Below are positions 19,811-64,000 of a stretch of DNA of 64,000 bases, piece after piece (position 1 is the first letter of the stretch; every line of letters starts with the position of its first letter). The notes under the pieces are model-generated. The model was not told where the DNA came from. It made no database searches and worked only from the letters and a program-made list of their open reading frames with translations. The position numbers and the translations under genes were made by a program. Source of the stretch: a virus. The stretch is from the IMG/VR virus record IMGVR_UViG_3300037483_001670, positions 118,424 to 182,423 of that record. The stretch is one strand, 5' to 3'.

Positions 19811-20119
19811 CTAATCCAACTTCGACCAGGCCGCGCCGGTCCACTGCGCGCTGACGCCGGCACCAGCCGCGACGGTCGCACCCAATAGGGTGAACGACTG
19901 GCTGCCGACGTTGTTGACGGTCACCCAGAGTCCGGCGGCCGTGTTGGTCGGATTCGGTAGCGAGAGCGCCTGGCCCGCCGTCGTCTGGTTCACGTTGAAC
20001 GTGGGCGCCAGATCAACCGTCGCCGCAGCCGTACCAATCGCGCCACCACCGGCAAGGTTACCGATCGGGATCACCCGAAGGCGGTTGCCTAGGCTGCCAA
20101 AGTTCGCATTGACCGGCAT
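19811..20119 (-). CDS. small beta-rich putative virion protein
   Basis: A/G/T/N-rich alternating strands ending WTGAAW. Confidence 0.55.
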   Translation of the reverse strand: MPVNANFGSLGNRLRVIPIGNLAGGGAIGTAAATVDLAPTFNVNQTTAGQALSLPNPTNTAAGLWVTVNNVGSQSFTLLGATVAAGAGVSAQWTGAAWSKLD

Positions 20120-20134
20120 CGCATCAACCTTTCT

Positions 20135-20806
20135 CTAGCGCGCCGTGCCGCCAGCGAGCGCAATCGCAATCGTCCCCGGTGTGCCCACCACCCCCGCCTC
20201 CGCGGCCAACATGCGCACGGTGGTCGCGCCTCGCGGAATGCGCACCGGGATCACGTAGTCGATGGCACCGGCACCCGCCGGAATCGGACCGGCCAGTTCC
20301 TGCATGTAGAACTGCTGTCGGCCCTGGGGCGCCGTTGGTACAATCGTGGCGTCGACCGTGATGTCCTGCCCTTCTTCGGTGCCGTTACCGAAGAGCACGT
20401 GGAAGATCGGGAAGCCTCCCGCCGCGCCACGGGTATACGTCACCCAGAACGCGATCTCTCCGACCCCGCTCGACACGGCAAACGCAGCCTGAGCGGTGAA
20501 CGCGCCTGCGGCAGGCAGAGCTGCCGAGGCGAGATGCACCGTGCGCGCGAACTCGTTGCCGCCGATCTTGAGATCGAAGAGGGTCGAAGCGACCGAGCCG
20601 ATTCGCACGCGGTTCCAGCCATCGGTCGCGTTGAAACCCATGCCGCGCGAACCAATGAGCGGCACCAAGGCCGCGTTGGTCATCGCATCCGCCAGTGTCA
20701 CGGCCGCGGCAACCGCGACGCTGCCCCACTGCGTGATGTTGACGGCGCTCGGCGAGCCCGACGTGCCGGTCAGCCGTTGTAGCCTTTCTTGAAATCGGTT
20801 GCTCAT
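20135..20806 (-). CDS. putative virion protein, beta-sandwich C-terminus
   Basis: EIAFWVTY...IFHVLF...DYVIPVRIP...VRMLAAE...IAIAL. Confidence 0.55.
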   Translation of the reverse strand: MSNRFQERLQRLTGTSGSPSAVNITQWGSVAVAAAVTLADAMTNAALVPLIGSRGMGFNATDGWNRVRIGSVASTLFDLKIGGNEFARTVHLASAALPAAGAFTAQAAFAVSSGVGEIAFWVTYTRGAAGGFPIFHVLFGNGTEEGQDITVDATIVPTAPQGRQQFYMQELAGPIPAGAGAIDYVIPVRIPRGATTVRMLAAEAGVVGTPGTIAIALAGGTAR

Positions 20807-20821
20807 CGCCTCTCCACTCCC

Positions 20822-21643
20822 TTACGTGGCCACGCCGATATTGATCATCACTCCGATGTCGGGACTTCCCTCGAAGAAGCGCAGCACGCCCAGATCGCTC
20901 GTAGTAAAATCCCAGGTGACGCCCGCGCCGTCGGTCGCCGGCCGAATGAAACCGATCAACAGTTCATCGCCCTGGGCTTGCAACTCGTGGACGACGTACG
21001 ACGGAAACAAGTTGTTGATGAGCCCAACACGTTGCTGTGCGAAAGTGGCAGGCGCCCCCAGCGCCACAGGCGCAATCGGGATGTTCGGGAAAAGAGTGCC
21101 AGGGGAGCTTGCGCCTGCGCCGGCACCGTCCGTCACCCGAAACTTCTCCGATACCATGTCCCCCGCCTGAACGAGCGGATACTGCGTAACGTTGTCGACG
21201 GCGAGCCCGAGGACCACATCGCTGTACTGCATGATCGATCCCTGCGCAGCCATCGGGATCAGGAACTCGTTATTTCCTTGCAAATTTTGCATAGGAAAAT
21301 GAAACGGAATGCGCTGGTTGCGGTAGTCGAACACATTGCGCTGCCGCCAGCCGATACACCAGTCGTACGGCAAGATGTCGCCGAAACCGATTCCAGGCGA
21401 CGGAATGATCGGCAGCCAAATCGACACGCGGGCCCCGAACGGCACGGGCAGACCACGCAGCAGGCCCGCGTTGTATCCGGGCAATCCCGCCCTGCCATCG
21501 AAAGGAACGCCGCCCTCGGTCACCATGATCGGCCGAGTGACGGACTGACCCTGGTACCGCGTCGTGTAACCGGTGTACGGACGCAGAATGCTCGTCACAC
21601 CAAACTGCGGATCATTCAGAACCGGAACCGCTTCTCCGCTCAT
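20822..21643 (-). CDS. putative virion protein (beta-rich)
   Basis: 273 aa, alternating hydrophobic strands, C-terminal GVMINIG. Confidence 0.55.
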   Translation of the reverse strand: MSGEAVPVLNDPQFGVTSILRPYTGYTTRYQGQSVTRPIMVTEGGVPFDGRAGLPGYNAGLLRGLPVPFGARVSIWLPIIPSPGIGFGDILPYDWCIGWRQRNVFDYRNQRIPFHFPMQNLQGNNEFLIPMAAQGSIMQYSDVVLGLAVDNVTQYPLVQAGDMVSEKFRVTDGAGAGASSPGTLFPNIPIAPVALGAPATFAQQRVGLINNLFPSYVVHELQAQGDELLIGFIRPATDGAGVTWDFTTSDLGVLRFFEGSPDIGVMINIGVAT

Positions 21644-21682
21644 GTCGCCACTCCATTCAAAACAGGAACCGCATTCATCCGA

Positions 21683-22039
21683 TCAGCCGTCCCCGAGTAG
21701 CCAGCGAGCGATGGCCGCATCGACGACGGCGACGGTGCCCGTCAGCGCCGCCACGTTGCGGTACGCCGGCTCCGCTTGTCCCTGCCGAAGGTAGACGACG
21801 GTGCCGATGCCGTGCTTCAGCGCCGCGGCCGCGGCCCAGCCGCCGAGCGCGCCGCGCAGGCCACTCCACAAGAGACCGCCGACGATGCCGACGCCGTACG
21901 CGGCGGTGACGATCACTTTCGCCTGATCGCGCGAGTCGTCCGTCGCGAGGTGCGCCGGCCACTCCTGAAAGTTTTGCACGCCGAGAAAGGTCACCCCGGC
22001 CGGCGCCTGCACCGCGTCTTCCGCAAACCCCTGTCTCAT
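21683..22039 (-). CDS. multi-TM membrane protein
   Basis: three to four Gly/Ala-rich hydrophobic helices. Confidence 0.7.
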   Translation of the reverse strand: MRQGFAEDAVQAPAGVTFLGVQNFQEWPAHLATDDSRDQAKVIVTAAYGVGIVGGLLWSGLRGALGGWAAAAALKHGIGTVVYLRQGQAEPAYRNVAALTGTVAVVDAAIARWLLGDG

Positions 22040-22635
22040 GCCGGGTAATCCTTCTTCTTCCCGCCCTTGTCGTGGAGGCCACGGTAGAGGAGATACGACG
22101 CCAGCGCTCCCCCGAGTACCGCATACGTCCCCGAGACAACGGCCTCTCTGTCAGCCTCCGGCGTTCCGATCGTCACCGCCCGCGCGGCGCGCGCGAGGTT
22201 CATGATCGAGCCGCCGTAGAGCCCGCCAGAGAGCCCGCCGAACATGCCGCCGCCGTACTTTGCACCGATCGCGCTCCCCACCCCGACGAGGAGCAGCCCC
22301 AACCCGAGCGTGTGTGCGTTGTCTTGCGGGATTCTCTCGGGCGGCCTCTGCGGCTCAGCCGCAGAGGGATCGACACCGAACGCCTGCGGGTAGTGGGGCG
22401 CCGCTACGCTGTGTCGCGCGTCGACAGCGTTCGGACGCGTGGGCATCCTCGGCGCCATCGCCATCATGGGCGGTCCGAAGCTAGGCTCCGGACCGGAGGG
22501 CGACTGAAACCTCGCCGCGAGGGGCGCGGAGCCCGGCGCAGGAGGCAGGTTGTCGTTCGGCGTCCAGGTGGAGCCGATGAAGCCGTTCGATTCGGCTCCG
22601 ATGTCTTCGATACCGTCGAGGGGGATGGCGGACAT
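22036..22635 (-). CDS. Pro-rich N-terminus + multi-TM membrane protein
   Basis: TLGLGLLLVGVG..., basic tail KGGKKK. Confidence 0.7.
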   Translation of the reverse strand: MSAIPLDGIEDIGAESNGFIGSTWTPNDNLPPAPGSAPLAARFQSPSGPEPSFGPPMMAMAPRMPTRPNAVDARHSVAAPHYPQAFGVDPSAAEPQRPPERIPQDNAHTLGLGLLLVGVGSAIGAKYGGGMFGGLSGGLYGGSIMNLARAARAVTIGTPEADREAVVSGTYAVLGGALASYLLYRGLHDKGGKKKDYPA

Positions 22636-22657
22636 GGGTGAGCGTGCGTGTCCCTAC

Positions 22658-22680
22658 GGACGACGCTCAGCTCGCAGTCC
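22658..22680 (-). promoter_or_regulatory. conserved hairpin element copy 1 (GGAC-x-CGAGCTGAGCG-x-GTCC)
   Basis: intergenic, 22 nt upstream of ATG; copies at 27293, 29064, 39311. Confidence 0.65.
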
Positions 22681-22735
22681 TGCCCCTCAGTCTAGCGGAA
22701 ATTTGGCCCGGGCGGCAAGTTGCCGGTGCCCGATG

Positions 22736-23398
22736 TCAAATCCGGCCCGATGCGGCGTGATTCAGCGCGCGAAGCACGGGCTCGGGCAGCGGATCGTCCG
22801 CTCCGAAGGGATGCGCTTTCACCCAGCTGAGAGCCTTCATGAGCCGCGCGTCGGCGTTCGGGTGGAGGCCCTTGCAGGGCTCGCCGCTGTAGACGCAGAG
22901 GCTCCGCGTCGCCGTCATCGACTGCCGCGCCATGTGAAGCGCGACGCGGGTCGCGAGCCGCCGATCTCGGAGCAGATCCTCGCCGACGATGCGCAGTCCC
23001 GTGCTTCGCTTCGTCCACCAGGTCCACTCGCCGTTTTGAAGCGCAAGGCCGCGCCCCGGCTGGATCTGAAAGATGGAGAACGCCCGCCCGTTGTCGCAGG
23101 TGCCCCGCCGGTCGGCCTTGTACCCCTTCCGGTTGCACGCCCCCTCGTCCACGAACTTGAAGAAGCGACCCTCATGGAAGGCGAGCGACGTGAGCAGGAT
23201 CGCCGTCGGCGCCGGCCCGCTGACACCCGGCCGTAACACCAGCGGTGCCTCCACTCCATCGGCAGCGACCTCGGCGATGTCGGTGGCGATGGCCACGTAC
23301 CGCTTGAGGACTTCGCTCTCGGGTTCGTGGTGCTCCACCGGGGGCGACCAGGTCAAAATCGCACGCAGGACGTAGACAACGAGGGCTAGGCTTTTCAT
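22736..23398 (-). CDS. lysozyme-like/SLT muramidase candidate with hydrophobic N-terminus
   Basis: LLTSLAFHEGRF...CDNGRAFSIFQIQ. Confidence 0.6.
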   Translation of the reverse strand: MKSLALVVYVLRAILTWSPPVEHHEPESEVLKRYVAIATDIAEVAADGVEAPLVLRPGVSGPAPTAILLTSLAFHEGRFFKFVDEGACNRKGYKADRRGTCDNGRAFSIFQIQPGRGLALQNGEWTWWTKRSTGLRIVGEDLLRDRRLATRVALHMARQSMTATRSLCVYSGEPCKGLHPNADARLMKALSWVKAHPFGADDPLPEPVLRALNHAASGRI

Positions 23399-23454
23399 GG
23401 CCGAGCAGCAAAACCCAGCTGGGCTCGCCCGTCAACCCTTGTGCCACTATGTGA

Positions 23455-23985
23455 CTACGTACGTATTGCCGATCTTCGAGATTTCGCGCGCCCGGAGATC
23501 GCGCGCGTCAACCAAAAGGCGAGCGCTCCGCCGAGCGCGCCGGCGAGCACGTTCGTCAGCATCGGCGACGATTCGGAGACGGGCTCTGGCGGCAGGACGA
23601 CGGGGGGCGCTGGCGCGGGAACGGGAGCCGGCTGAGCCGTCGGCGACGGCAAGGGAATGAGGTGGGTCCACATGCCGAGCACCTCGACGGTGCCGGGGAG
23701 CTCCGCGAACGTGATGGTGCGATCGGTGAGCGAGAAGCGCCCTTGCAGGTACGCGGTCCACGAGAACGCGCCCGACGGGTCCTCGTACTCGTCGGCGGGC
23801 CAATCGGGCGGCAGCGCCTTCTTGTCGACGAACTGCACCTCGCGAAAGCCCTGCCCCTCGAGCGCTTCGCGGACCTTGCCTTCGGTCGCCGCGAAGCCGG
23901 GCGCTTTGATGAGCATCCGCGCGCGGTAGATGACGTTCTGCCGCAGCGCGAGCCCGGCGGGGGACAAGATCGAGTTCGCCGGCAT
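23455..23985 (-). CDS. tail-anchored membrane protein
   Basis: Pro linker, C-terminal TM, basic tail. Confidence 0.7.
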   Translation of the reverse strand: MPANSILSPAGLALRQNVIYRARMLIKAPGFAATEGKVREALEGQGFREVQFVDKKALPPDWPADEYEDPSGAFSWTAYLQGRFSLTDRTITFAELPGTVEVLGMWTHLIPLPSPTAQPAPVPAPAPPVVLPPEPVSESSPMLTNVLAGALGGALAFWLTRAISGRAKSRRSAIRT

Positions 23986-23994
23986 GGGAGCGCC

Positions 23995-24474
23995 TTATCT
24001 CGAAACGATCCCGAGCTCCATCAGGTTTTCTTTGCCGCAGCAGTACGGCACCGGCGGCACGTGATCCGACATGAACCACCCGGCATCGAGCGCGCTTTTC
24101 AGCGCCTGCTCTTCGGTCCAGGCTTCTGGACCGGGCCGACCGCAACCTCCGCACCGGAAAAACTCTCGCAGCGGCCCAGTCGCCTCGTCAACGGCCCGTG
24201 CGACTGGCTCTACCTCAACGGGGAGCGCCGACGCGGCAGCGAGCGTCTCGAGCATGGCCGGCTCGGCGATGGGCGTCTCGATCGACGCATCGGCGAGCAG
24301 CTCGGTCGAGGGATCGCCCTCGACCGTCGGCCGGTCCGTCGCCTCTGGATCGGAAGCGAACGAGGTCTCCGGATCCGGAGATTCGGCGACAGTTCCCACT
24401 TCGGGCTCCACCGTCGACTCCATGGACGGCTCGGCGGTCGTTTCCTCTTTGGGTTTGCTCGTTCGACGTCCCAT
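23995..24474 (-). CDS. acidic low-complexity protein with CGGC...YCC
   Basis: E/P/S/T-rich N-half. Confidence 0.6.
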   Translation of the reverse strand: MGRRTSKPKEETTAEPSMESTVEPEVGTVAESPDPETSFASDPEATDRPTVEGDPSTELLADASIETPIAEPAMLETLAAASALPVEVEPVARAVDEATGPLREFFRCGGCGRPGPEAWTEEQALKSALDAGWFMSDHVPPVPYCCGKENLMELGIVSR

Positions 24475-24754: not shown

Positions 24755-26317
24755 TTATGGCCTCGAGACCAGCCGGCCACCGCTGACCGGATCGTTGACG
24801 TTGCCTCCAAAGCCGGTACCGCCACCGACCGCTGCCGCAAGAATGGCCCAAGTGGTCGCCGCTGTCGCGACATACGCACCCGTCGTGTTGTCGAACGGAC
24901 GAATGGTCGTCACGGCGCGCACCGAGAAGTCGCCACCGGTGCCAGTGATTGTGAACCCGGCCACTTGCCCGGCCAGATAGCTGACCGTCCCCACGCCCAC
25001 CGCAAGGCCCACGACCGCGTTGCCCTTGCCCCAGCAAAAGAAGCTGCCTGCCTGCGTCGAACCGTCGAACCGACCGTTCGTGATCATCTGAACCGCACCA
25101 GGACCAGGCGCGTCGAAGACCGCGCCACGCAGCCAACCCACGGGCCCGTTGACGAGGAACCTCGCGCCCTGGACCATGAAGTCGCTTTGCACGGTCACGT
25201 TGTTGTTGCCGCCGGCCGACGACGACACGGTGGTCGCGGAAAACCCGGCCGCTAAGAGCAAGATCGCCACGTTCGCACCGAGATTCGCGGACACCTCAGC
25301 GATCGAGCCCGAGATCAAGAGCTCGATGCACTCGGCCAGCAGATCGAACATCGTCCAGCCGCAGCCGTCGAGCACGATCACATCCGACGACTTGAGAACG
25401 AAATCGCCAAGCGTTTGCGCCGCGTTGATGCCGAGCACGACGCTGTCGAAGATGACAGGCGAGCCCAAGTTCGTCGAAAAGTTGTCCGCCGAGTCGAGCG
25501 TAATGAGCACCGTCGGCAGACACACGAGGGACTCGACCACGAACGTGTTGGTGGCCACCGGCGTCGACGTCGACGTGAACCCGCTCGGATTGACCGGCAC
25601 CGTGTAGCTGACCGGCGCGCGGAATTGGCAGACGCGGGCCTGCTTCGCGCCGAGGTCTTTCATCACGCCGCTGATCGCGCCCGTTGCCGCGCCGCTCGTC
25701 AGCCGAATACGCTTGTTGAGGAGGCCGCTCGCGGTCCAGCTGACCGGCAGCGCGTTCGACGTGATGAGCCACGACTCGTTCGTACCTGTCGCGCGATTCA
25801 ACGTACCGAGAACGTCGATCACGCCCGTGAACAGCGTCGCCTTGCCTTGGTGGTCGACCGTGCTGCCGTGGACGAAGATCTGAGAGTTTGTCTCACGTCG
25901 CCCTGCGAGCACGAAGGTGTCGCTCGGCAGCAAGTCGTTTAAGTATCGAAGGTGGTACGCGCCGGAACTCCAAATCGGGTACGAGCCCATACGGCGCTGC
26001 CGCTCGGCGTCGGACTGGAGGGCGGTGGCTGCGGTCGCGCCGTCGTTCGCATCGTTCCCGTTCACGGGATCGATGAACCAGTTGAGCTGCTGCATGTAGA
26101 AGAGGTTGCTGCCTCCCGTGCTCTTCTGAATCCAGTTGCCGGCGAGGAAGATCGACTTGACGACGCTCTTGCCGTCCGCCACCAACGACGGCGGCGGGAG
26201 GCGGTACACGTAGTCCGCGTCCTCCGAGACGACGTAGATCTCGTCGCCCGGAATGACCCGCGAGTCTCCGAAGCCGGAGAGAGCGGTCGGAGTCGCTACG
26301 CTGCCTAGATCGGCCAT
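24755..26317 (-). CDS. spike/receptor-binding-like protein paralog 1
   Basis: shared N-term MADLG..GFGDSRVIPGDEIYV; WFIDPVNGNDANDG motif; beta-helix-like C-half. Confidence 0.7.
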   Translation of the reverse strand: MADLGSVATPTALSGFGDSRVIPGDEIYVVSEDADYVYRLPPPSLVADGKSVVKSIFLAGNWIQKSTGGSNLFYMQQLNWFIDPVNGNDANDGATAATALQSDAERQRRMGSYPIWSSGAYHLRYLNDLLPSDTFVLAGRRETNSQIFVHGSTVDHQGKATLFTGVIDVLGTLNRATGTNESWLITSNALPVSWTASGLLNKRIRLTSGAATGAISGVMKDLGAKQARVCQFRAPVSYTVPVNPSGFTSTSTPVATNTFVVESLVCLPTVLITLDSADNFSTNLGSPVIFDSVVLGINAAQTLGDFVLKSSDVIVLDGCGWTMFDLLAECIELLISGSIAEVSANLGANVAILLLAAGFSATTVSSSAGGNNNVTVQSDFMVQGARFLVNGPVGWLRGAVFDAPGPGAVQMITNGRFDGSTQAGSFFCWGKGNAVVGLAVGVGTVSYLAGQVAGFTITGTGGDFSVRAVTTIRPFDNTTGAYVATAATTWAILAAAVGGGTGFGGNVNDPVSGGRLVSRP

Positions 26318-26320
26318 GCT

Positions 26321-27273
26321 CTATGCCCTCGTAATGAACTTGGCGCCGTTGGCGGCGATCTTGTTCGGCGCGATGGCCGCGTAGAGCGTGTCTTCGCCGG
26401 TCCGAAGATGCCACCCGCCTGGAAGTTGCCGTCCAGGTTGAGCGAATCGAACGTGACAGCGTTCTGCACGACGGCGCCGTTGACCGGCCCGTTGTTCGTC
26501 TTCATGCCGAAGTCCATCATGCCGACGCTCAAGGTCGGCACGGTCACGACTTCGTACGGATCGCCGTTCACCGGCGTCACGAGCAGCATGAGCTGCCCGA
26601 AGGCCACCGGATTGAACGTGCCGAACGGCGACACGCGCGCCGCGCCGGCGCCCAGATCCTTCACAAGCCGCGCGTACGCGCCCACCCGCGCACCGCCCGT
26701 GATCCGAATGATGCGGCCGATGTGCGGCGTAAATCCGCCGACCAGCGCGCCGTCCGTGATCGACATCGGGGTCTGCGCGCCACGGTTGATGGGCGTCACC
26801 GCCGTGAAGGTTCCGGTCGCGACCGACGTGCGCGTTCCTTGAAAGAGCAGGCCAGCGCCGTCGTAGATGATCGCGTTGCAGTTCACCTTGTCCGTCGTCG
26901 GCGGCGAGCTCAGGTAGGTGACCGTCGTCGGCAGCACGATCCGCGTGATGGCTCCCCAGCGGCGTTGCCTCTCCGCGTCCGTCCGAAGGGCGGTTCCCGC
27001 GGTATCTCCCGCGTTGGCATCGTTGCCGTTGACCGGATCGATGAACCACGCGGTCTGCACCAGGAAGTCGACCGCCACGCGCCGCATCCAGGTACCGACG
27101 AGGTTGATCGCCTTCACCGAGTTCACGCCATCGGCGACGAAGGTGGGGGGCGGTATCCGGTAGACGAAGTCCGCATCCTCCGCGACGACGTAGATCTCGT
27201 CGCCGGGGATGACCCGCGAGTCGCCGAACCCCGAGAGGGTCGTAAGAGTCGGTGTCGATCCGAGGTCGGCCAA
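26321..27273 (-). pseudogene. spike-like paralog 2, internally deleted/frameshifted
   Basis: same N-term; frame breaks at about 26400; natural-looking C-terminus TGEDTLYAAIAPNKIAANGAKFITRA in another frame. Confidence 0.65.
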
Positions 27274-27292
27274 AGCTGAAACGTCTCCCTAC

Positions 27293-27315
27293 AGACGACG
27301 CTCAGCTCGCGGTCT
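27293..27315 (-). promoter_or_regulatory. conserved hairpin element copy 2
   Basis: AGAC-CGCGAGCTGAGCGTC-GTCT, compensatory A-T pair. Confidence 0.65.
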
Positions 27316-27463
27316 TACGCCCAAGGTACCCCAAACCGGGGGCCGCCGGCAACTCAGCGCTGGTTCGTGACCGTGACGAGCAGCAACGAGCCGTCCGCGG
27401 CGTTGATCGTGCCCGCCGCGATGGGCCGCGATGACGGTGACCGAGCCGCAACTGGGCTCTTTC

Positions 27464-29044
27464 TTACAACGAGCGCAAGGCGCATCCCGTCAACGGATCG
27501 AAAAATTGGCCGTTGAAACCGCCCCCGGCGATCGTGGCCTGAATGAGTACGGACGTCAGGTTTCGATACGCCGTGAAGGCCGAAGTCGCGGGGTCCCAGG
27601 CCGGCGCAGTCGTGCGGAGCGCCTGCGCGTTGCGCAGCGAAATCCACGCATTCGCTGGCGCTGCGGTGAGATCGATAAAGAAGTACCCCGCCACACCAGG
27701 CGGCACGGGCGTATAGCTCAGCGAGTTTCCGCTCGAGAGCAGGAACGCTCCCCCTCCTGCCCCAGCCACGCCCCACACCTCACACCCCGCGTTCAAACAA
27801 GCGCCGCTGGCCTCGTACCCCGGCGCGGCCGTGTTGTTGAACACGCCCATGCCGTTCTGGAAGGTCCAAGATTTCACGGCGCCCACCTGCGTCTCGGTCA
27901 GGCCCAAAAACCGCACACCCCCTCGCTGCTGGCTCACGAACCGAATGACCGCGCTAGCTTGGAAGGTGCGGAACGACGGAGCTCCGGAGGCCGAGTCGTC
28001 CGCGTAACAATTCGCAAGCGTGATGCTGCTCGGAAGAAAGAGAATGGAGTTCGGCCGAATCCTGCACCCGACCATGCTGACCGCGCGCCCGGTCGCAGTG
28101 CCGTTCGCAGTACCCGTGCTGGCCCAATCCGAGCCCCACATGTAGACGCCCGCGTTGCCGGCCAGCGACATCGTCGTAATGGTCATGCTGTCGACCACGA
28201 CCGCATTCGCCGTACCGTTGGTCTGCGCCGTCAAGTTGATAACGAGTTGCGCGATGCTCGTCAGATCTTCGACGACAAACGTGTCCGTCGGAGCTGGGTT
28301 GAACGTGTTGGTAGCGAAGGCGAGCGGATTGGTGAACGTCTGCGTCACCTGACACTCGTTCATGCGCGCTTGCTTCGCGCCGAGGTCGGCCATCGGCCAT
28401 ACGACGCCGCCAACGTTCGCGCCGCTTGTAAACCGACACCGCTTGTTGAGCAGCCCGTCAGCGGTCCACGAGGTCACGATCGCGTTCGCGGTGATCTGAA
28501 GCGGCGTGTTGGTCGCGTGCGCCACCACCGTCACCGCATCCGCCGTCAACGATGCCAGGGTGGTCTTGCCCTGGTTGTTCGTGACGCTCGAGTGCAAGTA
28601 GATGTTGCACGCGGACGATTGAAGCTGCCCTGTCAGGATCACCGGGTCGGACGACGGCACGTCGGTCAGATACCGCAAGTGGTATTCGGCCAGCGTCCAC
28701 ATGGGCGCCGGTCCCATGCGCCGCTGCCGCTCGGCGTCCGTCTTCAGCGCCGTGGTCGAGGTGAGCCCATCGTTCGCATCGCTGCCGTTGGTGAAATCGA
28801 TGAACCAGTTCTGCTGGCTCATCATCGCGGCCGACCCGCTCGCGTTCCGCCGTTCCCAGAAGCCAGGCAAAAAGATCGCCTTGACAAGGTTCACGCCGTC
28901 GATCGGCGGCAGTGGCGACTGGAGGCGGTAAACGAAATCCGCGTCGATGTCGACGACGTAGACCTCGTCGCCAGGATTCACTCGCGAGTCGCCGTACCCA
29001 GCGAGCTGCGCGAGCGTCGGAATCGTCGGGGCTAGATCGGGCAT
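27464..29044 (-). CDS. spike/receptor-binding-like protein paralog 3
   Basis: MPDL..GYGDSRVNPGDEVYV; WFIDFTNGSDANDG; TDAERQRR. Confidence 0.7.
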   Translation of the reverse strand: MPDLAPTIPTLAQLAGYGDSRVNPGDEVYVVDIDADFVYRLQSPLPPIDGVNLVKAIFLPGFWERRNASGSAAMMSQQNWFIDFTNGSDANDGLTSTTALKTDAERQRRMGPAPMWTLAEYHLRYLTDVPSSDPVILTGQLQSSACNIYLHSSVTNNQGKTTLASLTADAVTVVAHATNTPLQITANAIVTSWTADGLLNKRCRFTSGANVGGVVWPMADLGAKQARMNECQVTQTFTNPLAFATNTFNPAPTDTFVVEDLTSIAQLVINLTAQTNGTANAVVVDSMTITTMSLAGNAGVYMWGSDWASTGTANGTATGRAVSMVGCRIRPNSILFLPSSITLANCYADDSASGAPSFRTFQASAVIRFVSQQRGGVRFLGLTETQVGAVKSWTFQNGMGVFNNTAAPGYEASGACLNAGCEVWGVAGAGGGAFLLSSGNSLSYTPVPPGVAGYFFIDLTAAPANAWISLRNAQALRTTAPAWDPATSAFTAYRNLTSVLIQATIAGGGFNGQFFDPLTGCALRSL

Positions 29045-29063
29045 GGGGCGCAGGCGTCCTTCC

Positions 29064-29089
29064 GGACCGCGCGCTCAGCTCGAGCGTCC
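29064..29089 (-). promoter_or_regulatory. conserved hairpin element copy 3
   Basis: GGAC-GCTCGAGCTGAGCGCGCG-GTCC. Confidence 0.6.
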
Positions 29090-29141
29090 TACCCCAGAGG
29101 ATACATGAGCCGGGGGCCAGGGCCAATCCCAAGCCGCAAAT

Positions 29142-34073: not shown

Positions 34074-34083
34074 TGAGCTCGCC

Positions 34084-34506: not shown

Positions 34507-34521
34507 CGTCTTGCCTCTTCC

Positions 34522-34890: not shown

Positions 34891-34895
34891 CGTCC

Positions 34896-35582: not shown

Positions 35583-35595
35583 CGCTCGTCGTCTC

Positions 35596-36659: not shown

Positions 36660-36660
36660 C

Positions 36661-38120: not shown

Positions 38121-38126
38121 TCGAGC

Positions 38127-42592: not shown

Positions 42593-42596
42593 CGGC

Positions 42597-44342: not shown

Positions 44343-44370
44343 ACGATATCCACTCCTGTACGAGTGTCAA
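44343..44370 (-). promoter_or_regulatory. putative promoter TTGACA-16-TATCGT
   Basis: in divergent intergenic gap; same architecture at 53563. Confidence 0.55.
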
Positions 44371-53082: not shown

Positions 53083-53566
53083 TGATGCCGAGCGAATGCT
53101 CGCTTCCATCACGATGGGCCTCCAGCAGGAGATCGAGTTCTACATGCGACGGTCGCAGGAGTACTTTGCGCTGATCGCGAAGATGGAAGCGCAGCGTGAA
53201 GAATGGCGCCTCCTCTACCGGAACGATTCGCTCGGGCATCAGAACGCGCAGACGCTCTTGCAGGAGGCGCTCGTCACCTCGCGGACGCAGCTCTACCGCG
53301 CCATCCAGATGATCAACGCGTTTCGAGCCGAGAAAAATCTCGCGCCGATCGCCGACGAAGTCACGCTCGAGCGCGAGCTCCGCGCGTTTCCGGTGGGCGT
53401 GGCGGAAGAGACGGCGAAGCGACTTGCCGTCGAAAATACCGCCGTCGCACCGCAGATCGACCCTGTCGCGGAGACCGCGAAGATCGACGCGGAGATCCCC
53501 GTGCCCGAGGGTGTCGTCGACGAATCGCACGCGCCGGCGCCCGAGACCGATCCCCAAACCTCTTGA
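52976..53566 (+). CDS. coiled-coil hypothetical protein
   Basis: helical composition. Confidence 0.65.
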   Translation: MGLLRKVGLAFRKALTEVAAAEAAERTAPAPEASTDDAERMLASITMGLQQEIEFYMRRSQEYFALIAKMEAQREEWRLLYRNDSLGHQNAQTLLQEALVTSRTQLYRAIQMINAFRAEKNLAPIADEVTLERELRAFPVGVAEETAKRLAVENTAVAPQIDPVAETAKIDAEIPVPEGVVDESHAPAPETDPQTS

Positions 53567-53590
53567 CGTTCGGCTCGGTTCACGTATCGT
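53563..53590 (+). promoter_or_regulatory. putative promoter TTGACG-16-TATCGT
   Basis: upstream of core/capsid operon. Confidence 0.55.
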
Positions 53591-56384: not shown

Positions 56385-57152
56385 ATGGCCAAGCTCACCA
56401 ACGTTCGCGAGCGCGTGCATCAGCCGTTTCGCGACAGTCTCGTCCGCACGAGCGGCTGGTTCGTCGGCAATCTGACGGACCGGACCGATCTCTTCACCCA
56501 GGCCGGCAAGGACGACGCGTCCACCAACCTGAAGAACGGCTCTACGCTTCCGTCCGACCAATCGATGGTCGTGCTGGCGTGCCGCGTCTTCTCGTGGTTC
56601 CGCCAGTCGATTCAGCGTTCGGCAACCACCATCGACGTCGGCAACGTGTGGTCGCCGGCGGATCGAAACGGCGATTTTGCCATCGCGGCTGCCAACTTCG
56701 GCACCGCGGGCGTGCTGCTCAATGGATCCACGGTGGGCGACGTCCACGACGTCTACCGTCTCCACTGGCAGTCGTCCGAGCAGCTCCTCTGGAGCTTCGG
56801 AGCCGGTGACAAGTTCTCGATCACCTCGATGCCCTCGGCGTACTTCCCGTACGGCGGCGGTCTCCATGGCGACATGGGCGGCGTGACCGACCTCATCCAC
56901 TGGAACAACGGCTTGCCGGACCACACCGGCATCCTGCGCCTCGCCCGCGCGATCCTCCTGCCCCCGCGGCAGAACATCAAGTGCCAGGCTCAAATCGTCG
57001 CGCTGCCGGACGGCGGCAACTCGGCGACCTTCGGCCTGACGCAGGGCGCGCGCAGCATGCTCTCGCTTACCTCCAACCTCAATGCGGTGGACGGCGTCGG
57101 CAAGAGCGTGTCGTTCACCTTCGACGGTCTCTTCTCCCGCGACGTTCAGTAG
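56385..57152 (+). CDS. major capsid protein candidate (single jelly-roll-like)
   Basis: 255 aa beta-rich, QPFRDS..LF...TNL...LPSDQSMVVLACRV...ILLPPRQNIKCQAQI...VSFTFDG; flanked by stem-loop and terminator; follows core protein. Confidence 0.6.
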   Translation: MAKLTNVRERVHQPFRDSLVRTSGWFVGNLTDRTDLFTQAGKDDASTNLKNGSTLPSDQSMVVLACRVFSWFRQSIQRSATTIDVGNVWSPADRNGDFAIAAANFGTAGVLLNGSTVGDVHDVYRLHWQSSEQLLWSFGAGDKFSITSMPSAYFPYGGGLHGDMGGVTDLIHWNNGLPDHTGILRLARAILLPPRQNIKCQAQIVALPDGGNSATFGLTQGARSMLSLTSNLNAVDGVGKSVSFTFDGLFSRDVQ

Positions 57153-58441: not shown

Positions 58442-59362
58442 ATGTCTGGTGGTATGAACCGCCAAGACGCTCTCAAGCTGCTCAAAGATTTTGGGCGGAC
58501 GGGGGGCCTGGGTGCGGCGCCCGAGTTGGCGCCGCAACAGGGCCCTCCTGCGCCCGCTCCGAACGCAATGACGCCCGCTCCGCTGAAGCCTGCGCCTGCC
58601 GTTGTGTTCGCTCCCGCTCCGGGTCCGCCCTCTGCGGCGAACGCGGGGGAGCTCGCTGGTCAGACGGTGGGGCCGCCCGGGATGGGCGTTCCGCCGACCG
58701 ACGTGCACCAGGCTGGTGGCGAGCTCCTCGCGCGCCTTCAGCATCCGGAGTTCCAGACGATGGAGGAGCTCTACCGGATCCTTCCGGAGGACAGCTGGTT
58801 TCAGCCGAGCGTTTCGCCGGGCAACCCGATCCAGTTCGAGCTCGGCTCCTTCACTGTGCCAAACAGCCAGCATTACTGGCTCTTCGACTACGAATTTTCG
58901 ATCTTCCGTTTCAGCGGCCTCGACGCCGGCGACATCCTGAAGTCCGAAGCGGGGCGCTACTCCGGCGTCATGGGCTTCGACGTCACGATCGACGGACGTC
59001 GGCCGTCGCACTTGCTCTACCAGCTCGATCCGCAGCCGGCACAGCTTCAGCGCCAGACGTTCATTTCGTTCAACGCGCAGGGCGGCACCAACAACAACAG
59101 CGCGTTCAACCGATCGACGGCGCAGAGCTTTGCGGCGACCGCGTCGCAGGGCACCTCGGTCTTGCCGGTGCGCCGCGCGATGCAGGGGCCGGAGGGGATG
59201 CCGTTCACGTTCATCGCGAGGCAGCAAGCGAAGGTGTCGCTCTCCATCATCATCTTCAAGCGGGTGCTGACGCCGATCGCGGCCGTCGAGGGGCGGCACG
59301 CTGGGTACCTGCTTCAGTCGAGTCTCGCCGAATCGCTCATCCTTCGCATGAGGCCGAGGTAA
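58442..59362 (+). CDS. third capsid-like protein, Pro/Ala-rich N-arm + beta-sandwich
   Basis: IQFELGSFTVPNSQHYWLFDYEFSI...FTFIA...VSLSIIIF. Confidence 0.55.
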   Translation: MSGGMNRQDALKLLKDFGRTGGLGAAPELAPQQGPPAPAPNAMTPAPLKPAPAVVFAPAPGPPSAANAGELAGQTVGPPGMGVPPTDVHQAGGELLARLQHPEFQTMEELYRILPEDSWFQPSVSPGNPIQFELGSFTVPNSQHYWLFDYEFSIFRFSGLDAGDILKSEAGRYSGVMGFDVTIDGRRPSHLLYQLDPQPAQLQRQTFISFNAQGGTNNNSAFNRSTAQSFAATASQGTSVLPVRRAMQGPEGMPFTFIARQQAKVSLSIIIFKRVLTPIAAVEGRHAGYLLQSSLAESLILRMRPR

Positions 59363-59364
59363 AC

Positions 59365-59496
59365 ATGACCCTCGCCTCGATCGCACAGCACTGCATGTGG
59401 GTCCGCACCGGGCAGGCCGAAAGTGTGCCTGCTTGGCTCAGCTACTGCCCTTGTGGTGCTTTGCGATCGAGGCGAGCGTCCGAAGGGGGACCGTGA
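59365..59496 (+). CDS. very small hypothetical protein
   Basis: coupled 43 aa ORF. Confidence 0.3.
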   Translation: MTLASIAQHCMWVRTGQAESVPAWLSYCPCGALRSRRASEGGP

Positions 59497-60188
59497 GCTA
59501 TGAGCTTGCAGCTCGCCCCCGCCGCCCGGGTCTCGGGGATGTCGATCCCTGGGAATACGTGTGGGCGCATGCGCTCACAACGGACGCGGTCTACGTGCTC
59601 CGACTTCGGGTCACGGGAGTTGCGCTCCGCGATCCGACCGATGCGCTGCTCTTCGCGCGCGCGGCCGGTCAAGGTCAAAACCTCGCCCTGGACGTGCGAG
59701 GCGTCGCTGTTTCTCAACCGCGGGGCGCGGCGAGCGACGAGTATGTGGTCGACATCATTTTCACAACGTCCGCTTTGCGGGTCGCGGTGCTCTGGGCCGA
59801 CGGCGCGGCCGACATGGCGCGCAAGATCGCGGCCGATCCGGATCTCCGCGCGCGCTACCCGGGGGTCAGCATTGCGGGGCCTGTCTTCGGCGCGCTCGCC
59901 GCGCCGGCCGAAGCGATCGATCATTGGCGTGCGCAGCCGGTGCTTTGGGATCATGCGATCAGCGGGCCGCGGCAGCTCGGCGGTCCGACCGACTCGTTTG
60001 CGCAGCCGGCCGACTACAACGTCGTCAAGGGCAAGGCAGACGACGGATCGCGCGCGGTGCCGTGGGTCATTCCAAAGGGAGGTCTTGGGCCGCCCCCGAA
60101 GCCCATGGAAGCCTCGTGGATGGTGGCGGGTGGACTCGGTGTCGTGCTCGTAGGTGTTTGGCTATCGAGAAAGGAAACCAGGCGATGA
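59493..60188 (+). CDS. tail-anchored protein (MSY...GLGD)
   Basis: GTG start, C-terminal TM, RKETRR. Confidence 0.7.
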   Translation: MSYELAARPRRPGLGDVDPWEYVWAHALTTDAVYVLRLRVTGVALRDPTDALLFARAAGQGQNLALDVRGVAVSQPRGAASDEYVVDIIFTTSALRVAVLWADGAADMARKIAADPDLRARYPGVSIAGPVFGALAAPAEAIDHWRAQPVLWDHAISGPRQLGGPTDSFAQPADYNVVKGKADDGSRAVPWVIPKGGLGPPPKPMEASWMVAGGLGVVLVGVWLSRKETRR

Positions 60189-60679
60189 GTTACTACATGT
60201 TGAACGGAATGAGCGGCCCGGATGGTCTCGGCTACTACGCTGGACTCGGCGCCGATCCGGCCTTCAACCCCGCTGCCGTGTACGCGGCGTGGATGGAGCA
60301 GACGACGGCGAACGCCAACAACGCGGTCAAGACGATCCAGGCCGGGCTGAACACGCTCGGATTCGGACCGCTCGTCGTCGATGGCGTGTGGGGCTCGGGC
60401 TCGTCGCGAGCGTTCCTCGCGTTCGCGCAGAAGAACGGCGCCTCCACCATCTCGAGCTGCCCTGGCTCGAAGCCGGGTGTCTCGCCGGTCGTGCCGGGCT
60501 CGTGTCCCACCAAGGACGGCATCGAGAAAATGGCGGTCCTTCTCGCGAAGGGCGGCCAGTCGCAAGCGAGCATGTTTCTCGCGGGCGGCCTCGGTCTCGT
60601 CGCGGTGGTCGGTCTCGGCCTCCTCGCCATGGGCAGCAAGAAGAAGAAGTCGTCTTCTTCGCGCAGCCACGCGGTGTAA
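60185..60679 (+). CDS. tail-anchored protein with peptidoglycan-binding domain
   Basis: MSY, GLG x2, VKTIQAGLNTLGFGPLVVDGVWG, TM, KKKK. Confidence 0.8.
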   Translation: MSYYMLNGMSGPDGLGYYAGLGADPAFNPAAVYAAWMEQTTANANNAVKTIQAGLNTLGFGPLVVDGVWGSGSSRAFLAFAQKNGASTISSCPGSKPGVSPVVPGSCPTKDGIEKMAVLLAKGGQSQASMFLAGGLGLVAVVGLGLLAMGSKKKKSSSSRSHAV

Positions 60680-60682
60680 CGG

Positions 60683-60925
60683 ATGGCGTGCCCCGGTTGC
60701 CTCGTCGCAGTTGCCGGCCCCGACGACGTGAGTACGTCGGAAGGGTCGAGCACTGCGAGGTTGGCGAAGGGGGCGGCCATCTTTGGCGGCGGGGTCATCG
60801 CTGGCATCGTGGTCGCGACGGTCTTCGCGCTCCGTGATGCGGAAAAGATGCTCAGCGAGCGGCGCGGTTACGCTCGCAACCGTCGCAAGCGGTACCGGCG
60901 AAACTGCGGTTGTGGAGGACACTGA
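60683..60925 (+). CDS. small TM protein with basic YxRN tail
   Basis: TM then GYARNRRKRYRRNCGC. Confidence 0.7.
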   Translation: MACPGCLVAVAGPDDVSTSEGSSTARLAKGAAIFGGGVIAGIVVATVFALRDAEKMLSERRGYARNRRKRYRRNCGCGGH

Positions 60926-61179
60926 TCGTGGCGTTACCTGGGATTCCGAATCTGCCGTACTCCGAGATGCTCCAAGCTGCTCAGCATGGGTCGCCTGCCC
61001 TGCTCGGCGCTGTCGGGCGTGCGTTCGGGTTGGCAGAGCCGGAGCGGGCGGCCCTGGCGAACGGCAAAATCCCCGCGTGGTTCTGGGTGACGATCGGTGT
61101 TGGGCTCGGCGTCGTGGCAGGCATCCGGCTGCACAAGGCGATGCCCACAAAAATCCCCGAGTGGCTAGCGGGCAAGTGA
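60910..61179 (+). CDS. small membrane protein
   Basis: WFWVTIGVGLGVVAGIRL. Confidence 0.65.
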   Translation: MWRTLIVALPGIPNLPYSEMLQAAQHGSPALLGAVGRAFGLAEPERAALANGKIPAWFWVTIGVGLGVVAGIRLHKAMPTKIPEWLAGK

Positions 61180-61191
61180 GGAGATAGGACG

Positions 61192-61470
61192 ATGTCGTAC
61201 ACTTCATTCGGAGAAGAGATCGCCAGGCCGACGAAAGCGCTCATCGATTCGGGCCAGCTTCAGCTGCCCATCTTGACGAGGCTCCTCATCTCGGGACCGG
61301 GCGAGCCGGCGCCGACGGCGCCGAGTCCTGACGGCTCGGTGCAGTCGACGTACGCGATGACGTCGCCTCCGCAGGATGGCGGCTCGATCGTGTACATCGG
61401 GCTCGGTGTCGCGGCGCTCGCGCTCGGCGGCGCGTTCTACGCCAAGTACCGCAAGCGGAAGGCTGGATAG
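61192..61470 (+). CDS. small tail-anchored protein (MSY)
   Basis: TM, KYRKRK. Confidence 0.75.
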   Translation: MSYTSFGEEIARPTKALIDSGQLQLPILTRLLISGPGEPAPTAPSPDGSVQSTYAMTSPPQDGGSIVYIGLGVAALALGGAFYAKYRKRKAG

Positions 61471-61474
61471 CGCG

Positions 61475-62401
61475 ATGTCGTACGCGGTCATGGGAGCTCG
61501 CCGGGGCCTGGGCATCACCCTGGACCCAAGCGGCGGGAACATCGTCCAGCCGGCGCAGAGGCCTGGCGACTGGGTGCCGGACGCCGCGGGGACGTGCTGC
61601 CCGCCGCTCGCGGACATGCTGGCGCACGGGTACTACGACGTCGTCGAGCAGCATCAGCTCGATCTCAACGCGAAATATGGGTGGCCCGCCAATTCGTGCA
61701 CGGCGCTCATTCCGCGGGGCAAGTGGCCGCCCGAGTGGAAGTGCAACCTGCCGAACGCGATGATCATCGGCAACACGAAGCCGGCCCAGTACGCGAGCTC
61801 GGGCGATTACATCGACGCGATCCGCGCAGGCAAGGAGCGTCCTCCGACGAGGTTTCCGGCGCTCTACGCCGCTCCTGCTTCGCCAGTGACGTCGCTCATT
61901 TCCCGCGTCGCGCAGGCGACGATTCAGCCCATCGTTGCAGCGATGACGCCCGCTCCGCCACCGGCCGCTCCGTCGGCGCCCCCACCTCCTGCTGGGAGCC
62001 AGTACGAGCAGTTTCGAGCGGGCTGTTTGCAGGGGCTTTACGCGCCGAACTGGTGCGAGAGCGTCGGGCTTCCCGGCGTTCCTCCGTTCGTGCCGCCGCC
62101 CCCTCCTCCGCCCCCACCGCCTCAGCAGTTGCCGCCGCCTTCCGCGGCTCCGCCGCCGCCGTCCGGGCAGCTGCCGCAGTGCCCGCCCGGGCAATATTGG
62201 GGCGGCTACGGATGCGTGCCGCAGGGCACGACGTCGTCGCTGCTTCCGCAGCCCTACCCGCCGCCGGGTTACCCGCAACCGTACGCAGCGGGTGGCGGAT
62301 GGTGGGCCGCGCAAGCGCCCAACACGAAGCTCGCGATCGTGGGAGGCGGCGCAGCGGCAGCGCTCCTCTTGGTGTTCATGGCAACGCGCGGAGGAGCGTA
62401 G
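61475..62401 (+). CDS. Pro-rich tail-anchored protein, paralog of 37518-38120
   Basis: MSY..RRGLG, shared CCPPL domain, poly-Pro stalk, CPPGQYWGGYGC, TM. Confidence 0.8.
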   Translation: MSYAVMGARRGLGITLDPSGGNIVQPAQRPGDWVPDAAGTCCPPLADMLAHGYYDVVEQHQLDLNAKYGWPANSCTALIPRGKWPPEWKCNLPNAMIIGNTKPAQYASSGDYIDAIRAGKERPPTRFPALYAAPASPVTSLISRVAQATIQPIVAAMTPAPPPAAPSAPPPPAGSQYEQFRAGCLQGLYAPNWCESVGLPGVPPFVPPPPPPPPPPQQLPPPSAAPPPPSGQLPQCPPGQYWGGYGCVPQGTTSSLLPQPYPPPGYPQPYAAGGGWWAAQAPNTKLAIVGGGAAAALLLVFMATRGGA

Positions 62402-62410
62402 GAGGACGTC

Positions 62411-63352
62411 ATGTCGTACGCAGGTATCGAAGTTCCGATCACGGGTCCTGGCGGCGCGAAGAGCGTCGAGACGCCCGTTGCGAGCGCGATCGATTGCGGT
62501 TCGCCGCTCGTGCTTCAGCAAATGCTGGGGGACCTCGGTTACTACGGGGGAGAGGTCACGGGCTTCTTCAACGCGAACACGTTCTCGGCGCTCGAGCGCT
62601 TCGCGGCCGACGTCGGCGCGGAGTACACGCCAGGGTTCTACCCGAACGATGTGCATTGCGGCGCGATCATCGCGGCGTGGACCAACCGGCGCATCGGCAA
62701 GGATCCCTTTCCGAAGCCAGGCGTGCCGGCCGTGATGCCGAGCTTCACGCCTGATCAGGCGGTGCCGCGCATCCAGAAGACGCTTGCGGCGCTCGCCAAG
62801 CAGAAACCTGCGTGCCCCTCGTGCTCCCCTTGCGCAGTTCCAGGCTTCTCAGGATTCTTGGGCCTCGGAGCGTTCGGCCTGGGCGCGTTCGGCACGCAGC
62901 CTACCATCGGGCAAGGCAAACCGGCCAACCCCGCTGCGACGAAGCTCTGGCAGACGTTCCTCGGCCAAGTCATCGAGCCGGCTCCGAAGGTCGACGGTGT
63001 TTTCGGGTCGGGCACGACGAGCGCGACGAAGGCCTTTCAGAAGGGCGCGGGGCTCACGGCCGACGGCATCGTGGGCCCGACGACCTGGACGCGTGCGGAT
63101 GCCGTGGCCGCTTCGCTCGCGGCCCCAGCGGCGCCCCCGGGCGGCGGAGCGCCAGTCGTCGTTCCTCCGCCGGGCAGTGAGACGACCGCCGTCGTGTCGG
63201 CGACGAACGGTGGTGGAGGTCCGCTTGCGAACGCCAAAATCTGGTGGGGCGAGCAGACGAAGACGACGCAGTACGCGGTCATGGGCGGTGGAGCCGTCGC
63301 CCTCATCGGTCTTCTCATGTTGGCCACGCGTAGCGGCGAGGAGGCGGCCTAA
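62411..63352 (+). CDS. tail-anchored protein with two peptidoglycan-binding domains
   Basis: LQQMLGDLGYY..VTGFF; VDGVFGSGTTSATKAFQKGAGLTADGIVGPTTW; TM. Confidence 0.8.
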   Translation: MSYAGIEVPITGPGGAKSVETPVASAIDCGSPLVLQQMLGDLGYYGGEVTGFFNANTFSALERFAADVGAEYTPGFYPNDVHCGAIIAAWTNRRIGKDPFPKPGVPAVMPSFTPDQAVPRIQKTLAALAKQKPACPSCSPCAVPGFSGFLGLGAFGLGAFGTQPTIGQGKPANPAATKLWQTFLGQVIEPAPKVDGVFGSGTTSATKAFQKGAGLTADGIVGPTTWTRADAVAASLAAPAAPPGGGAPVVVPPPGSETTAVVSATNGGGGPLANAKIWWGEQTKTTQYAVMGGGAVALIGLLMLATRSGEEAA

Positions 63353-63364
63353 GGGCCAGGGGCT

Positions 63365-64000
63365 ATGTCTTACTCGATCGTTGGCGGACGACGCGGGCTC
63401 GACGGCTACCCCATGGCGTACATGGCGGGTCCAAACTCGCCGCAGGCCGCGGTCGTCAAGGAGACGGGGCCGGTTTGCGGTTTCCAGATCGCCGCGCAGG
63501 TGATGTTGAAGGACTTCGGGTTTGGCGCAGGCGCGGCGAGCACGTTCGACCCGAAGTTTCCCGACGACTTCCATAATTTTGCGGTCGCTTGGGGCATTCC
63601 GCATGTTGCGGGCACGCCAGTGAACGACCAAATGTGCGCCGTCCTCACGACGCAATGGAAGTCGGTGTCTCGTCCTGTGGCGGCAACTCCGTGGGTGATC
63701 GAGCGTAATCCGAGCCTGCCGATGCCTAAGCCGCCGCCGGTGGCGGTGGCTCCACCTCCTCCCGTGTACGTGGCTCCCCCGCCGCCGGTGTACGTGGCAC
63801 CGCCACCACCCCCTCCCCCTCCTCCTCCGGTCTACGTGGCCCCGCCGCCGCCACCTCCTCCCGTGTACGTGGCACCCCCCCCGCCGCCGCCCGTGCAGGT
63901 GCCCGTTGCGGTGGCGCCGATCGTCATCCCGCCGGCGCAGCCCACGTACGTCTCGCCGACGCCGCCACCGTTGCCCATTACGGCAGCGCCGCCCCCACCG
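63365..64000 (+). CDS. MSY-family protein with extensin-like PPPVYVA repeats (runs off window end)
   Basis: hand translation MSYSIVGGRRGLDG...APPPPVYVAPPPPVYVAPPPP. Confidence 0.75.
   Translation, partial: MSYSIVGGRRGLDGYPMAYMAGPNSPQAAVVKETGPVCGFQIAAQVMLKDFGFGAGAASTFDPKFPDDFHNFAVAWGIPHVAGTPVNDQMCAVLTTQWKSVSRPVAATPWVIERNPSLPMPKPPPVAVAPPPPVYVAPPPPVYVAPPPPPPPPPPVYVAPPPPPPPVYVAPPPPPPVQVPVAVAPIVIPPAQPTYVSPTPPPLPITAAPPPP

What the first reader, a model, noticed from the sequence alone, without database searches (positions are those of the whole stretch)
19811..64000. Candidate new lineage of large, tailless, lipid-containing bacterial virus
Seen: about 35 kb of structural-looking genes in two divergent arms around a DnaB/primase module. 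They include three consecutive 255-368 aa beta-rich proteins, a protamine-like protein, about 20 membrane-anchored proteins, spike-like paralogs and a Cys-His-Asp protease. I recognise no terminase, portal, HK97 capsid, tail or tape-measure gene. Established: isolated tailless membrane viruses of bacteria (PRD1, PM2, FLiP, Thermus P23-77) are about 10-20 kb and are not known for tRNA arrays. Inference: a jelly-roll-type, membrane-containing virus larger than 64 kb with at least 34 tRNAs, probably infecting a diderm high-GC host such as Myxococcota.
Basis: partly seen in the sequence, partly recalled or inferred. Interest (0 to 1): 0.9.

Follow-up and report, generated by a model that had tools for sequence, protein, structure and literature searches.

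The report
Large tailless jelly-roll bacterial virus
This is the particle-building region of a complete 182-kb uncultured bacterial virus that has no detectable head, tail or DNA-packaging motor; it probably wraps its DNA in an arginine-rich protein inside a membrane-lined jelly-roll shell, a design known so far only from viruses 4-9 times smaller.

The parts
56385..57152 (+). Candidate major capsid protein, single jelly roll, 255 aa
57332..58438 (+). Second jelly-roll protein with an N-terminal 55-residue helix (second capsid, penton or cement candidate), 368 aa
   Evidence: 677 homologues. AF2 pLDDT 74. VIA: PBCV-1 8.2, PHM 8.0, SPV1 7.7, HCIV-1 7.0, P23-77 VP17 6.3. Foldseek top hit SPV1, E 0.011.
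58454..59362 (+). Third conserved beta-rich protein with a Pro-rich N-terminus; fold not modelled
   Evidence: Present in all 14 loci and in 5/5 complete genomes. ESM Atlas nearest named family is PM2 P2_C at 0.77, a lead only.
53667..56222 (+). Protamine-like core protein: 585-aa basic region with repeated xxN sites, two TM helices, C-terminal G[FIVM]G repeats
   Evidence: 37% R+K in residues 1-585. Conserved upstream of the capsid gene in all relatives; a 27-29% R+K protein sits in the same place in remote relatives L074 and L075.
53563..53590 (+). Sigma70-like promoter TTGACG-16-TATCGT at the head of the right arm
   Evidence: The count equals the chance expectation; only the position is suggestive.
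59493..64000 (+). Run of tail-anchored membrane proteins with an N-terminal MSY..G[LF]G motif; the last ORF (from about 63365) runs across the circular junction
   Evidence: same order in the 177-kb relative L007.
45897..47381 (+). DnaB-like replicative helicase
   Evidence: PF03796 E 1.2e-25
47378..48505 (+). DnaG-like primase (zinc ribbon plus Toprim)
   Evidence: PF13155 E 2.8e-4 and PF01807 E 0.011, both under cut-off
44407..45882 (+). Probable replication origin and initiator region: iteron-like CCGGT[GC]AGAAT repeats (44585-45102) and a 27-bp-arm palindrome (44941-44996) inside an open frame upstream of DnaB
   Evidence: The cumulative GC-skew minimum lies here (G000:163.7 kb) and next to the helicase gene in all five complete genomes.
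44343..44370 (-). Sigma70-like promoter TTGACA-16-TATCGT at the head of the left arm
43115..43906 (-). Conserved Cys-containing core protein, function unknown
   Evidence: 5/5 complete genomes
39965..42658 (-). 897-aa coiled-coil, Pro/Gln-rich protein (scaffold or size-determining candidate)
   Evidence: 5/5 genomes. Lies two genes upstream of the TGL gene, much as SSIP-1 gp33 lies before gp34; no significant sequence match to gp33.
38636..39259 (-). Transglutaminase-like Cys-His-Asp enzyme (maturation protease or cross-linker candidate)
   Evidence: Motifs conserved. Single copy in 13/13 records including SSIP-1. SSIP-1 structural gp34 E 2e-8. Transglut_core (weak) is annotated in remote relatives.
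30546..38618 (-). Block of small, mostly tail-anchored membrane proteins with a G[FLIVM]G motif, including core genes 30546-31163, 31160-31492, 34896-35582 and 35811-36659
24755..30542 (-). Four paralogous beta-rich proteins (vertex spike or receptor-binding candidates); the second (26305-27273) is shortened and appears frameshifted near its end
   Evidence: 31-49% mutual identity. Not found in the four complete relatives, so a variable module. Frame check. Fold not modelled.
19811..24474 (-). Further virion-like genes, including the core beta-rich protein 20822-21643
16938..18902 (-). Core HExxH metalloprotease (16938-17480), PG-binding/SLT endolysin (17477-18379) and a core Cys protein (18384-18902), just outside the finding
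   Evidence: Endolysin matches SSIP-1 gp54, E 1e-11.
401..12844 (-). tRNA array, 33 genes in the window and 38 in the genome; accessory to this genome
   Evidence: Relatives carry 0-3.

Best explanation
A lytic dsDNA virus of a walled bacterium with a circular ~182-kb genome and a tailless, probably icosahedral, internal-membrane virion built from single jelly-roll proteins. It belongs to an undescribed lineage of 110-180 kb genomes distantly linked to SSIP-1. Mechanism: (1) The circle replicates bidirectionally from an iteron origin with its own DnaB/DnaG and a borrowed host polymerase (skew and repeats shown; polymerase borrowing inferred from the lack of a polymerase hit). A conserved tyrosine recombinase probably resolves dimers (inferred). 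(2) Host sigma70 polymerase transcribes the two structural arms (inferred). (3) The 851-aa basic protein condenses the genome and, through its two TM helices, ties it to a host-derived membrane studded with 20-30 tail-anchored proteins (composition shown; role inferred). (4) Protein 56385, with 57332 and 58454, polymerises around this vesicle, so no ATP-driven packaging motor is needed (fold shown for two proteins; absence of a conserved ATPase shown; assembly route inferred from SPV1). (5) The Cys-His-Asp enzyme and the HExxH protease cut precursors at the enriched G[FLIVM]G and xxN sites (motif enrichment shown; cleavage inferred). (6) The endolysin releases particles. Scaling from SSIP-1 and SPV1 suggests a 160-180 nm particle (inference).
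For: 126-bp exact end overlap, one ORF running across the junction, and synteny with L007. No terminase, portal, HK97 or tail family in Pfam/PHROG/NCBIfam scans of ORFs of 95 aa or more; the two PHROG terminase hits seen are a UvrD intein region and a non-conserved HerA ATPase. PF03237, PF03354, PF04860, PF05065, PF04665 and PF01580 reach no cut-off in 12-19 records while controls ring. 22 core families, none an ATPase. Jelly-roll models with SPV1 first in three of four PDB searches. BFVD top hit is a 211-aa protein, probably SSIP-1 gp46. SSIP-1 gp34 and gp54 homologues. Order coiled coil, TGL, basic protein, capsid kept in relatives with 35-45% capsid identity. SSIP-1 is a 44-kb, T=49, membrane-containing phage with two MCP types (PMC6260650, PMC6356626). 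SPV1 has a single jelly-roll shell, lipid layer and nucleoprotein core (PMC8459092).
Confidence: 0.72

Rival explanations
1. Same tailless jelly-roll virion, but DNA is pumped into a preformed shell by an unrecognised or host ATPase (for example host FtsK, or the HerA-like gene at G000:79396-81225).
For: All Halopanivirales have a packaging ATPase (PMC5332951). SSIP-1 has a structural P-loop protein, gp40. G000 encodes one HerA/DUF87 ATPase.
Against: That ATPase lies about 80 kb from the module and has no match in 13 relatives. No Walker-A protein other than the helicase recurs across complete genomes. A very large basic, membrane-anchored core protein fits co-condensation better.
Confidence: 0.1
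2. An enveloped, non-icosahedral (pleomorphic or poxvirus-like) particle in which the jelly-roll proteins act as a transient scaffold or inner core, and the many tail-anchored proteins form the envelope.
For: An unusually large membrane-protein set. A Cys protease-like enzyme, metalloprotease, dual-specificity phosphatase, DnaJ-like protein and glycosyltransferases are all core, recalling poxvirus morphogenesis (own knowledge).
Against: Best viral fold matches are icosahedral capsid proteins. The nearest isolate, SSIP-1, is icosahedral. An endolysin implies lytic release.
Confidence: 0.1
3. Not a virus but a large plasmid-like replicon that encodes a membrane or protein compartment, or a vesicle transfer system.
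For: Theta origin with iterons, tyrosine recombinase, CRISPR array, tRNAs and no DNA polymerase hit. Jelly rolls also occur in cellular proteins.
Against: No conjugation or partition family seen in the scans. No match in 72,556 plasmids. Only three short-contig hits in 185,579 genomes. Endolysin, dozens of small phage-like ORFs and homology to SSIP-1 virion protein gp34.
Confidence: 0.05
4. A highly diverged tailed phage (Caudoviricetes), as public taxonomy labels the protein clusters (Uroviricota), with the jelly rolls as decoration proteins.
For: ESM Atlas clusters are labelled Uroviricota. The genome size is typical of myoviruses.
Against: No terminase, portal, HK97, sheath or tube family in this genome; the four families tested across relatives are absent too. 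No conserved ATPase. The jelly-roll gene is the most conserved gene, unlike a decoration protein.
Confidence: 0.03

Closest known systems
[quoted passage not shown]
   Same: Bacterial host and circular dsDNA. Homologous transglutaminase-like virion protein (gp34, E 2e-8; profile E 3e-19) placed after a coiled-coil gene. Homologous transglycosylase (gp54, E 1e-11). A membrane protein (gp44) followed by 2-3 small beta proteins (gp45-47). Tail-anchored proteins with GxG motifs. A 211-aa protein, probably gp46, is the best structural match to 56385.
   Different: Genome 4 times larger. No homologue of the P-loop structural protein gp40. A 585-aa protamine-like region is absent from gp44. Capsid homology is not significant by sequence. 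Own DnaB/DnaG, 38 tRNAs and a CRISPR locus.
Portogloboviridae (Sulfolobus polyhedral virus 1; VP4/VP10, PDB 6OJ0)
   Same: Single jelly-roll shell proteins are the top or near-top fold matches. Circular dsDNA, no DNA polymerase, predicted nucleoprotein core and lipid layer, glycosyltransferase, virus-borne CRISPR array.
   Different: About 20 kb, archaeal host, non-lytic (PMC8459092). No sequence similarity. Nine times smaller.
Singelaviria / Helvetiavirae / Halopanivirales (P23-77, SH1, HHIV-2, HCIV-1, SNJ1)
   Different: These are 16-30 kb and all have an FtsK/HerA-type packaging ATPase (PMC5332951), which is missing here.
Prokaryotic double jelly-roll viruses without packaging ATPase (Odin group, FLiP; PMC5894146)
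   Same: No packaging ATPase; capsid thought to assemble around the genome.
   Different: Double jelly-roll capsid and 7-17 kb genomes.

Membership tests
Caudoviricetes | Terminase large subunit | tested here: not met
   PF03237: 0 in own genome, 0/13 relatives; PF03354: 0/19 relatives; PHROG hits explained; no conserved ATPase
Caudoviricetes | Portal protein | tested here: not met
   PF04860 0/12 with controls ringing; no portal family in whole-proteome scans. Sequence profiles only.
Caudoviricetes | HK97-fold major capsid protein | tested here: inconclusive
   PF05065 0/12 and no capsid family in scans; only 2 of 22 core proteins were folded, both jelly rolls
Singelaviria (Halopanivirales) | Two major capsid proteins, each a single vertical jelly roll | tested here: inconclusive
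Singelaviria (Halopanivirales) | FtsK/HerA (A32-like) packaging ATPase conserved with the capsid genes | tested here: not met
   PF04665 and PF01580 reach no cut-off; the single HerA gene is remote and absent from 13 relatives
Singelaviria (Halopanivirales) | Internal lipid membrane in an icosahedral virion | not testable with these tools
   Only indirect: 28 tail-anchored proteins
Portogloboviridae | VP4/VP10-like single jelly-roll shell proteins | tested here: inconclusive
Portogloboviridae | About 20-kb genome, Saccharolobus host, non-lytic | tested here: not met
   182 kb, bacterial signals, endolysin
Portogloboviridae | Nucleoprotein core of A-form DNA | not testable with these tools
   Basic core protein present; no structure
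SSIP-1-like phages (unclassified) | Capsid protein homologous to gp45/gp46 | tested here: inconclusive
   BFVD top hit 211 aa, E 1.7e-3, unnamed; hhalign E 0.041 in register; hmmsearch not above shuffles
SSIP-1-like phages (unclassified) | Structural transglutaminase-like protein gp34 | tested here: met
SSIP-1-like phages (unclassified) | Structural P-loop ATPase gp40 | tested here: not met
   No G000 protein matches gp40 at E<1e-3
Varidnaviria (double jelly-roll viruses: PRD1, PM2, FLiP) | [quoted passage not shown] | tested here: not met
   Both models hold one jelly roll; matches cover one barrel of PBCV-1 or PRD1. The third protein was not folded but its conserved part is only about 200 aa.

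The most novel reading that the evidence does not exclude
A widespread, order- or class-level lineage of giant single-jelly-roll bacterial viruses that encapsidate 110-180 kb without any packaging motor. They would use a protamine-like, membrane-anchored polyprotein and an adenovirus/poxvirus-like protease maturation programme, a convergent prokaryotic parallel to eukaryotic large DNA viruses, currently hidden in databases under the label Caudoviricetes.
Probability: 0.5. Interest if true: 0.92.

Novelty: new variant of a known kind. Interest (0 to 1): 0.8.

Why it matters
Large bacterial virus genomes are assumed to be tailed phages, and ATP-driven packaging is thought necessary for large dsDNA genomes (PMC5894146). 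A common lineage of 110-180 kb viruses with single jelly-roll shells and no motor would raise the size ceiling of tailless membrane phages about four-fold over SSIP-1. It would give the orphan SSIP-1 a family context and enlarge the small realm Singelaviria or a sister group. It would also show that genome-based surveys mislabel these genomes as Caudoviricetes. The conserved capsid gene is a ready marker for finding particles and hosts.

Tried and rejected
Pfam and PHROGs on the jelly-roll trio: no family. PDB sequence searches with A2, A7 and the TGL protein: nothing. Phage and plasmid collections by tblastn: no match. PHROG terminase hits rejected as an intein region in UvrD and a generic HerA ATPase that rings in all 14 controls. 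Sequence bridging of the capsid family to SSIP-1 gp45/46 through remote 190-230 aa homologues was not significant. Paralogy among the three beta proteins was not detected (best E 0.044). The SSIP-1 primary paper was not held. Nine literature searches found no description of this lineage; the library lacks most subscription journals.

Full report
Genome context. The window is the last 64 kb of a single 182,423-bp virus record, 64.7% GC, with about 281 genes by my own caller. IMG/VR lists it as linear and 73% complete. The two ends share 126 identical bases (the last 4 of 130 mismatch, in a Pro-rich repeat). Joining them gives one continuous 400-aa ORF with the N-terminal MSY..GLxG start and C-terminal TM anchor typical of its paralogues. 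The genes after the junction follow the same order in a 177-kb relative. I therefore treat the genome as a complete or near-complete circle; reads could not be checked.

The observation. Residues 1-585 of 53667-56222 are 37% R+K. Twenty proteins in the finding have a C-terminal TM helix, 28 of 55 across the structural regions against 10 of 226 elsewhere. A G[FLIVM]G motif lies in the first 60 residues of 26 of 55 against 14 of 226 (p 4e-12; regions chosen by eye). ARAGORN gives 33 tRNAs in the window and 38 in the genome.

No tailed-phage or packaging genes. ORFs of 95 aa or more were scanned against Pfam and PHROGs, and those outside the structural arms also against NCBIfam (four ORFs on locus borders were missed and lists were cut at 25 families). 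They give helicases, ThyA, PyrE/F, GroES, SSB, glycosyltransferases, a tyrosine recombinase, a TnpB/Cas12f-like protein and endolysins, but no capsid, portal, tail or DNA polymerase. Two PHROG terminase hits are the intein region of UvrD and a HerA ATPase; the latter has no match in 13 relatives. Targeted six-frame searches for two terminase families, portal, HK97 capsid, A32 and FtsK reached no cut-off in 12-19 records, up to nine of them at least 90% complete, while controls rang. Four complete relatives (112-144 kb) were read in full. Twenty-two families are shared by all five genomes and none is a P-loop ATPase.

Link to SSIP-1. An earlier scan note pointed to SSIP-1, and I tested it. The TGL protein matches structural gp34 (E 2e-8; profile 3e-19) and the endolysin matches gp54 (E 1e-11; such enzymes move freely, so this is weaker). 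SSIP-1 has a coiled-coil gene before gp34, and a membrane protein before its 2-3 beta proteins. It is a 44-kb, about 100-nm, T=49 membrane-containing phage with two capsid protein types (PMC6260650, PMC6356626). Its P-loop protein gp40 has no counterpart here. Relatives with only 35-45% capsid identity keep the order coiled coil, TGL, small membrane genes, basic protein, capsid, so the module is old and stable.

Replication and expression. The GC-skew minimum falls between the arms at about 45.3 kb of the window, on iteron-like repeats and a long palindrome, with the maximum half a genome away; the minimum lies beside the helicase gene in all five genomes. Each arm starts with TTGAC-..-TATCGT (count at chance level). 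The host is a walled bacterium. Lipoprotein-like genes suggest a diderm (read from sequence), but no test pointed to Myxococcota.

Distribution. Relatives occur on at least 142 metagenome stretches and on about 24 IMG/VR records of 38-179 kb, never on a long chromosomal contig. Four come from records named Hain..01um, which I read as a 0.1-um groundwater fraction; this fits particles or ultrasmall cells and is weak support only. No cultured phage or plasmid matches.

Verdict. The most likely reading (0.72) is a tailless single-jelly-roll virus with an internal membrane that assembles around protamine-condensed DNA and matures by proteolysis. It works like SPV1 and is distantly related to SSIP-1, but it fails membership of Portogloboviridae (size, host) and Halopanivirales (no packaging ATPase). 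I found no paper describing it. The scan has noted what appears to be the same group on other genomes; that is repetition, not independent proof. No particle has been seen, so the virion form remains inferred.

Noticed in passing
L004:257-3200 (G000:60257-63200): TnpB/Cas12f-like gene directly followed by a CRISPR array of 13 identical 36-bp repeats with 34-42 bp spacers, plus degenerate copies. Spacers have no match in held loci; the repeat is not in other viral contigs.
   Followed up: partly
L005:9085-12717 (G000:88085-91717): 1210-aa tyrosine recombinase conserved in all five complete genomes, although no integrated copy was found; dimer resolvase or virion-linked role possible.
   Followed up: partly
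L002:2174-2602 and L001:5954-6616: A dual-specificity-phosphatase-like protein (TCxxGxNRS) and a DnaJ-like protein are core genes of the lineage, as are two glycosyltransferases (L001:11163-13514, L002:118-1170).
   Followed up: partly
L003:17351-17641 (G000:57351-57641): A small non-structural gene ends in a segment 44-59% identical to the WFxDxxNGND motif region of the spike-like paralogues.
   Followed up: no
window 26305-27273 (-): The second spike-like paralogue is about 200 aa shorter than its siblings and its natural-looking C-terminus lies in another frame: deletion, pseudogene or assembly error.
   Followed up: partly
L005:15998-19036 (-): UvrD/PcrA helicase with an intein inserted in the Walker A motif.
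   Followed up: partly
L004:11812-12144: GroES co-chaperonin, also in two relatives; could aid capsid folding as T4 gp31 does (own knowledge).
   Followed up: no
G000:60-119 kb (alignment A4 members): Pfam hit to Tad5 (Thoeris inhibitor, E 3e-33) and a Dam methylase: anti-defence genes.
   Followed up: no
window 53667-55420; G000:88085-91717 end; SSIP-1 gp41/gp44: Recurrent hydrophobic-x-[AP]-N / NP sites in the basic protein of this virus and its relatives, with similar ENP motifs in SSIP-1: a second candidate cleavage signal.
   Followed up: partly
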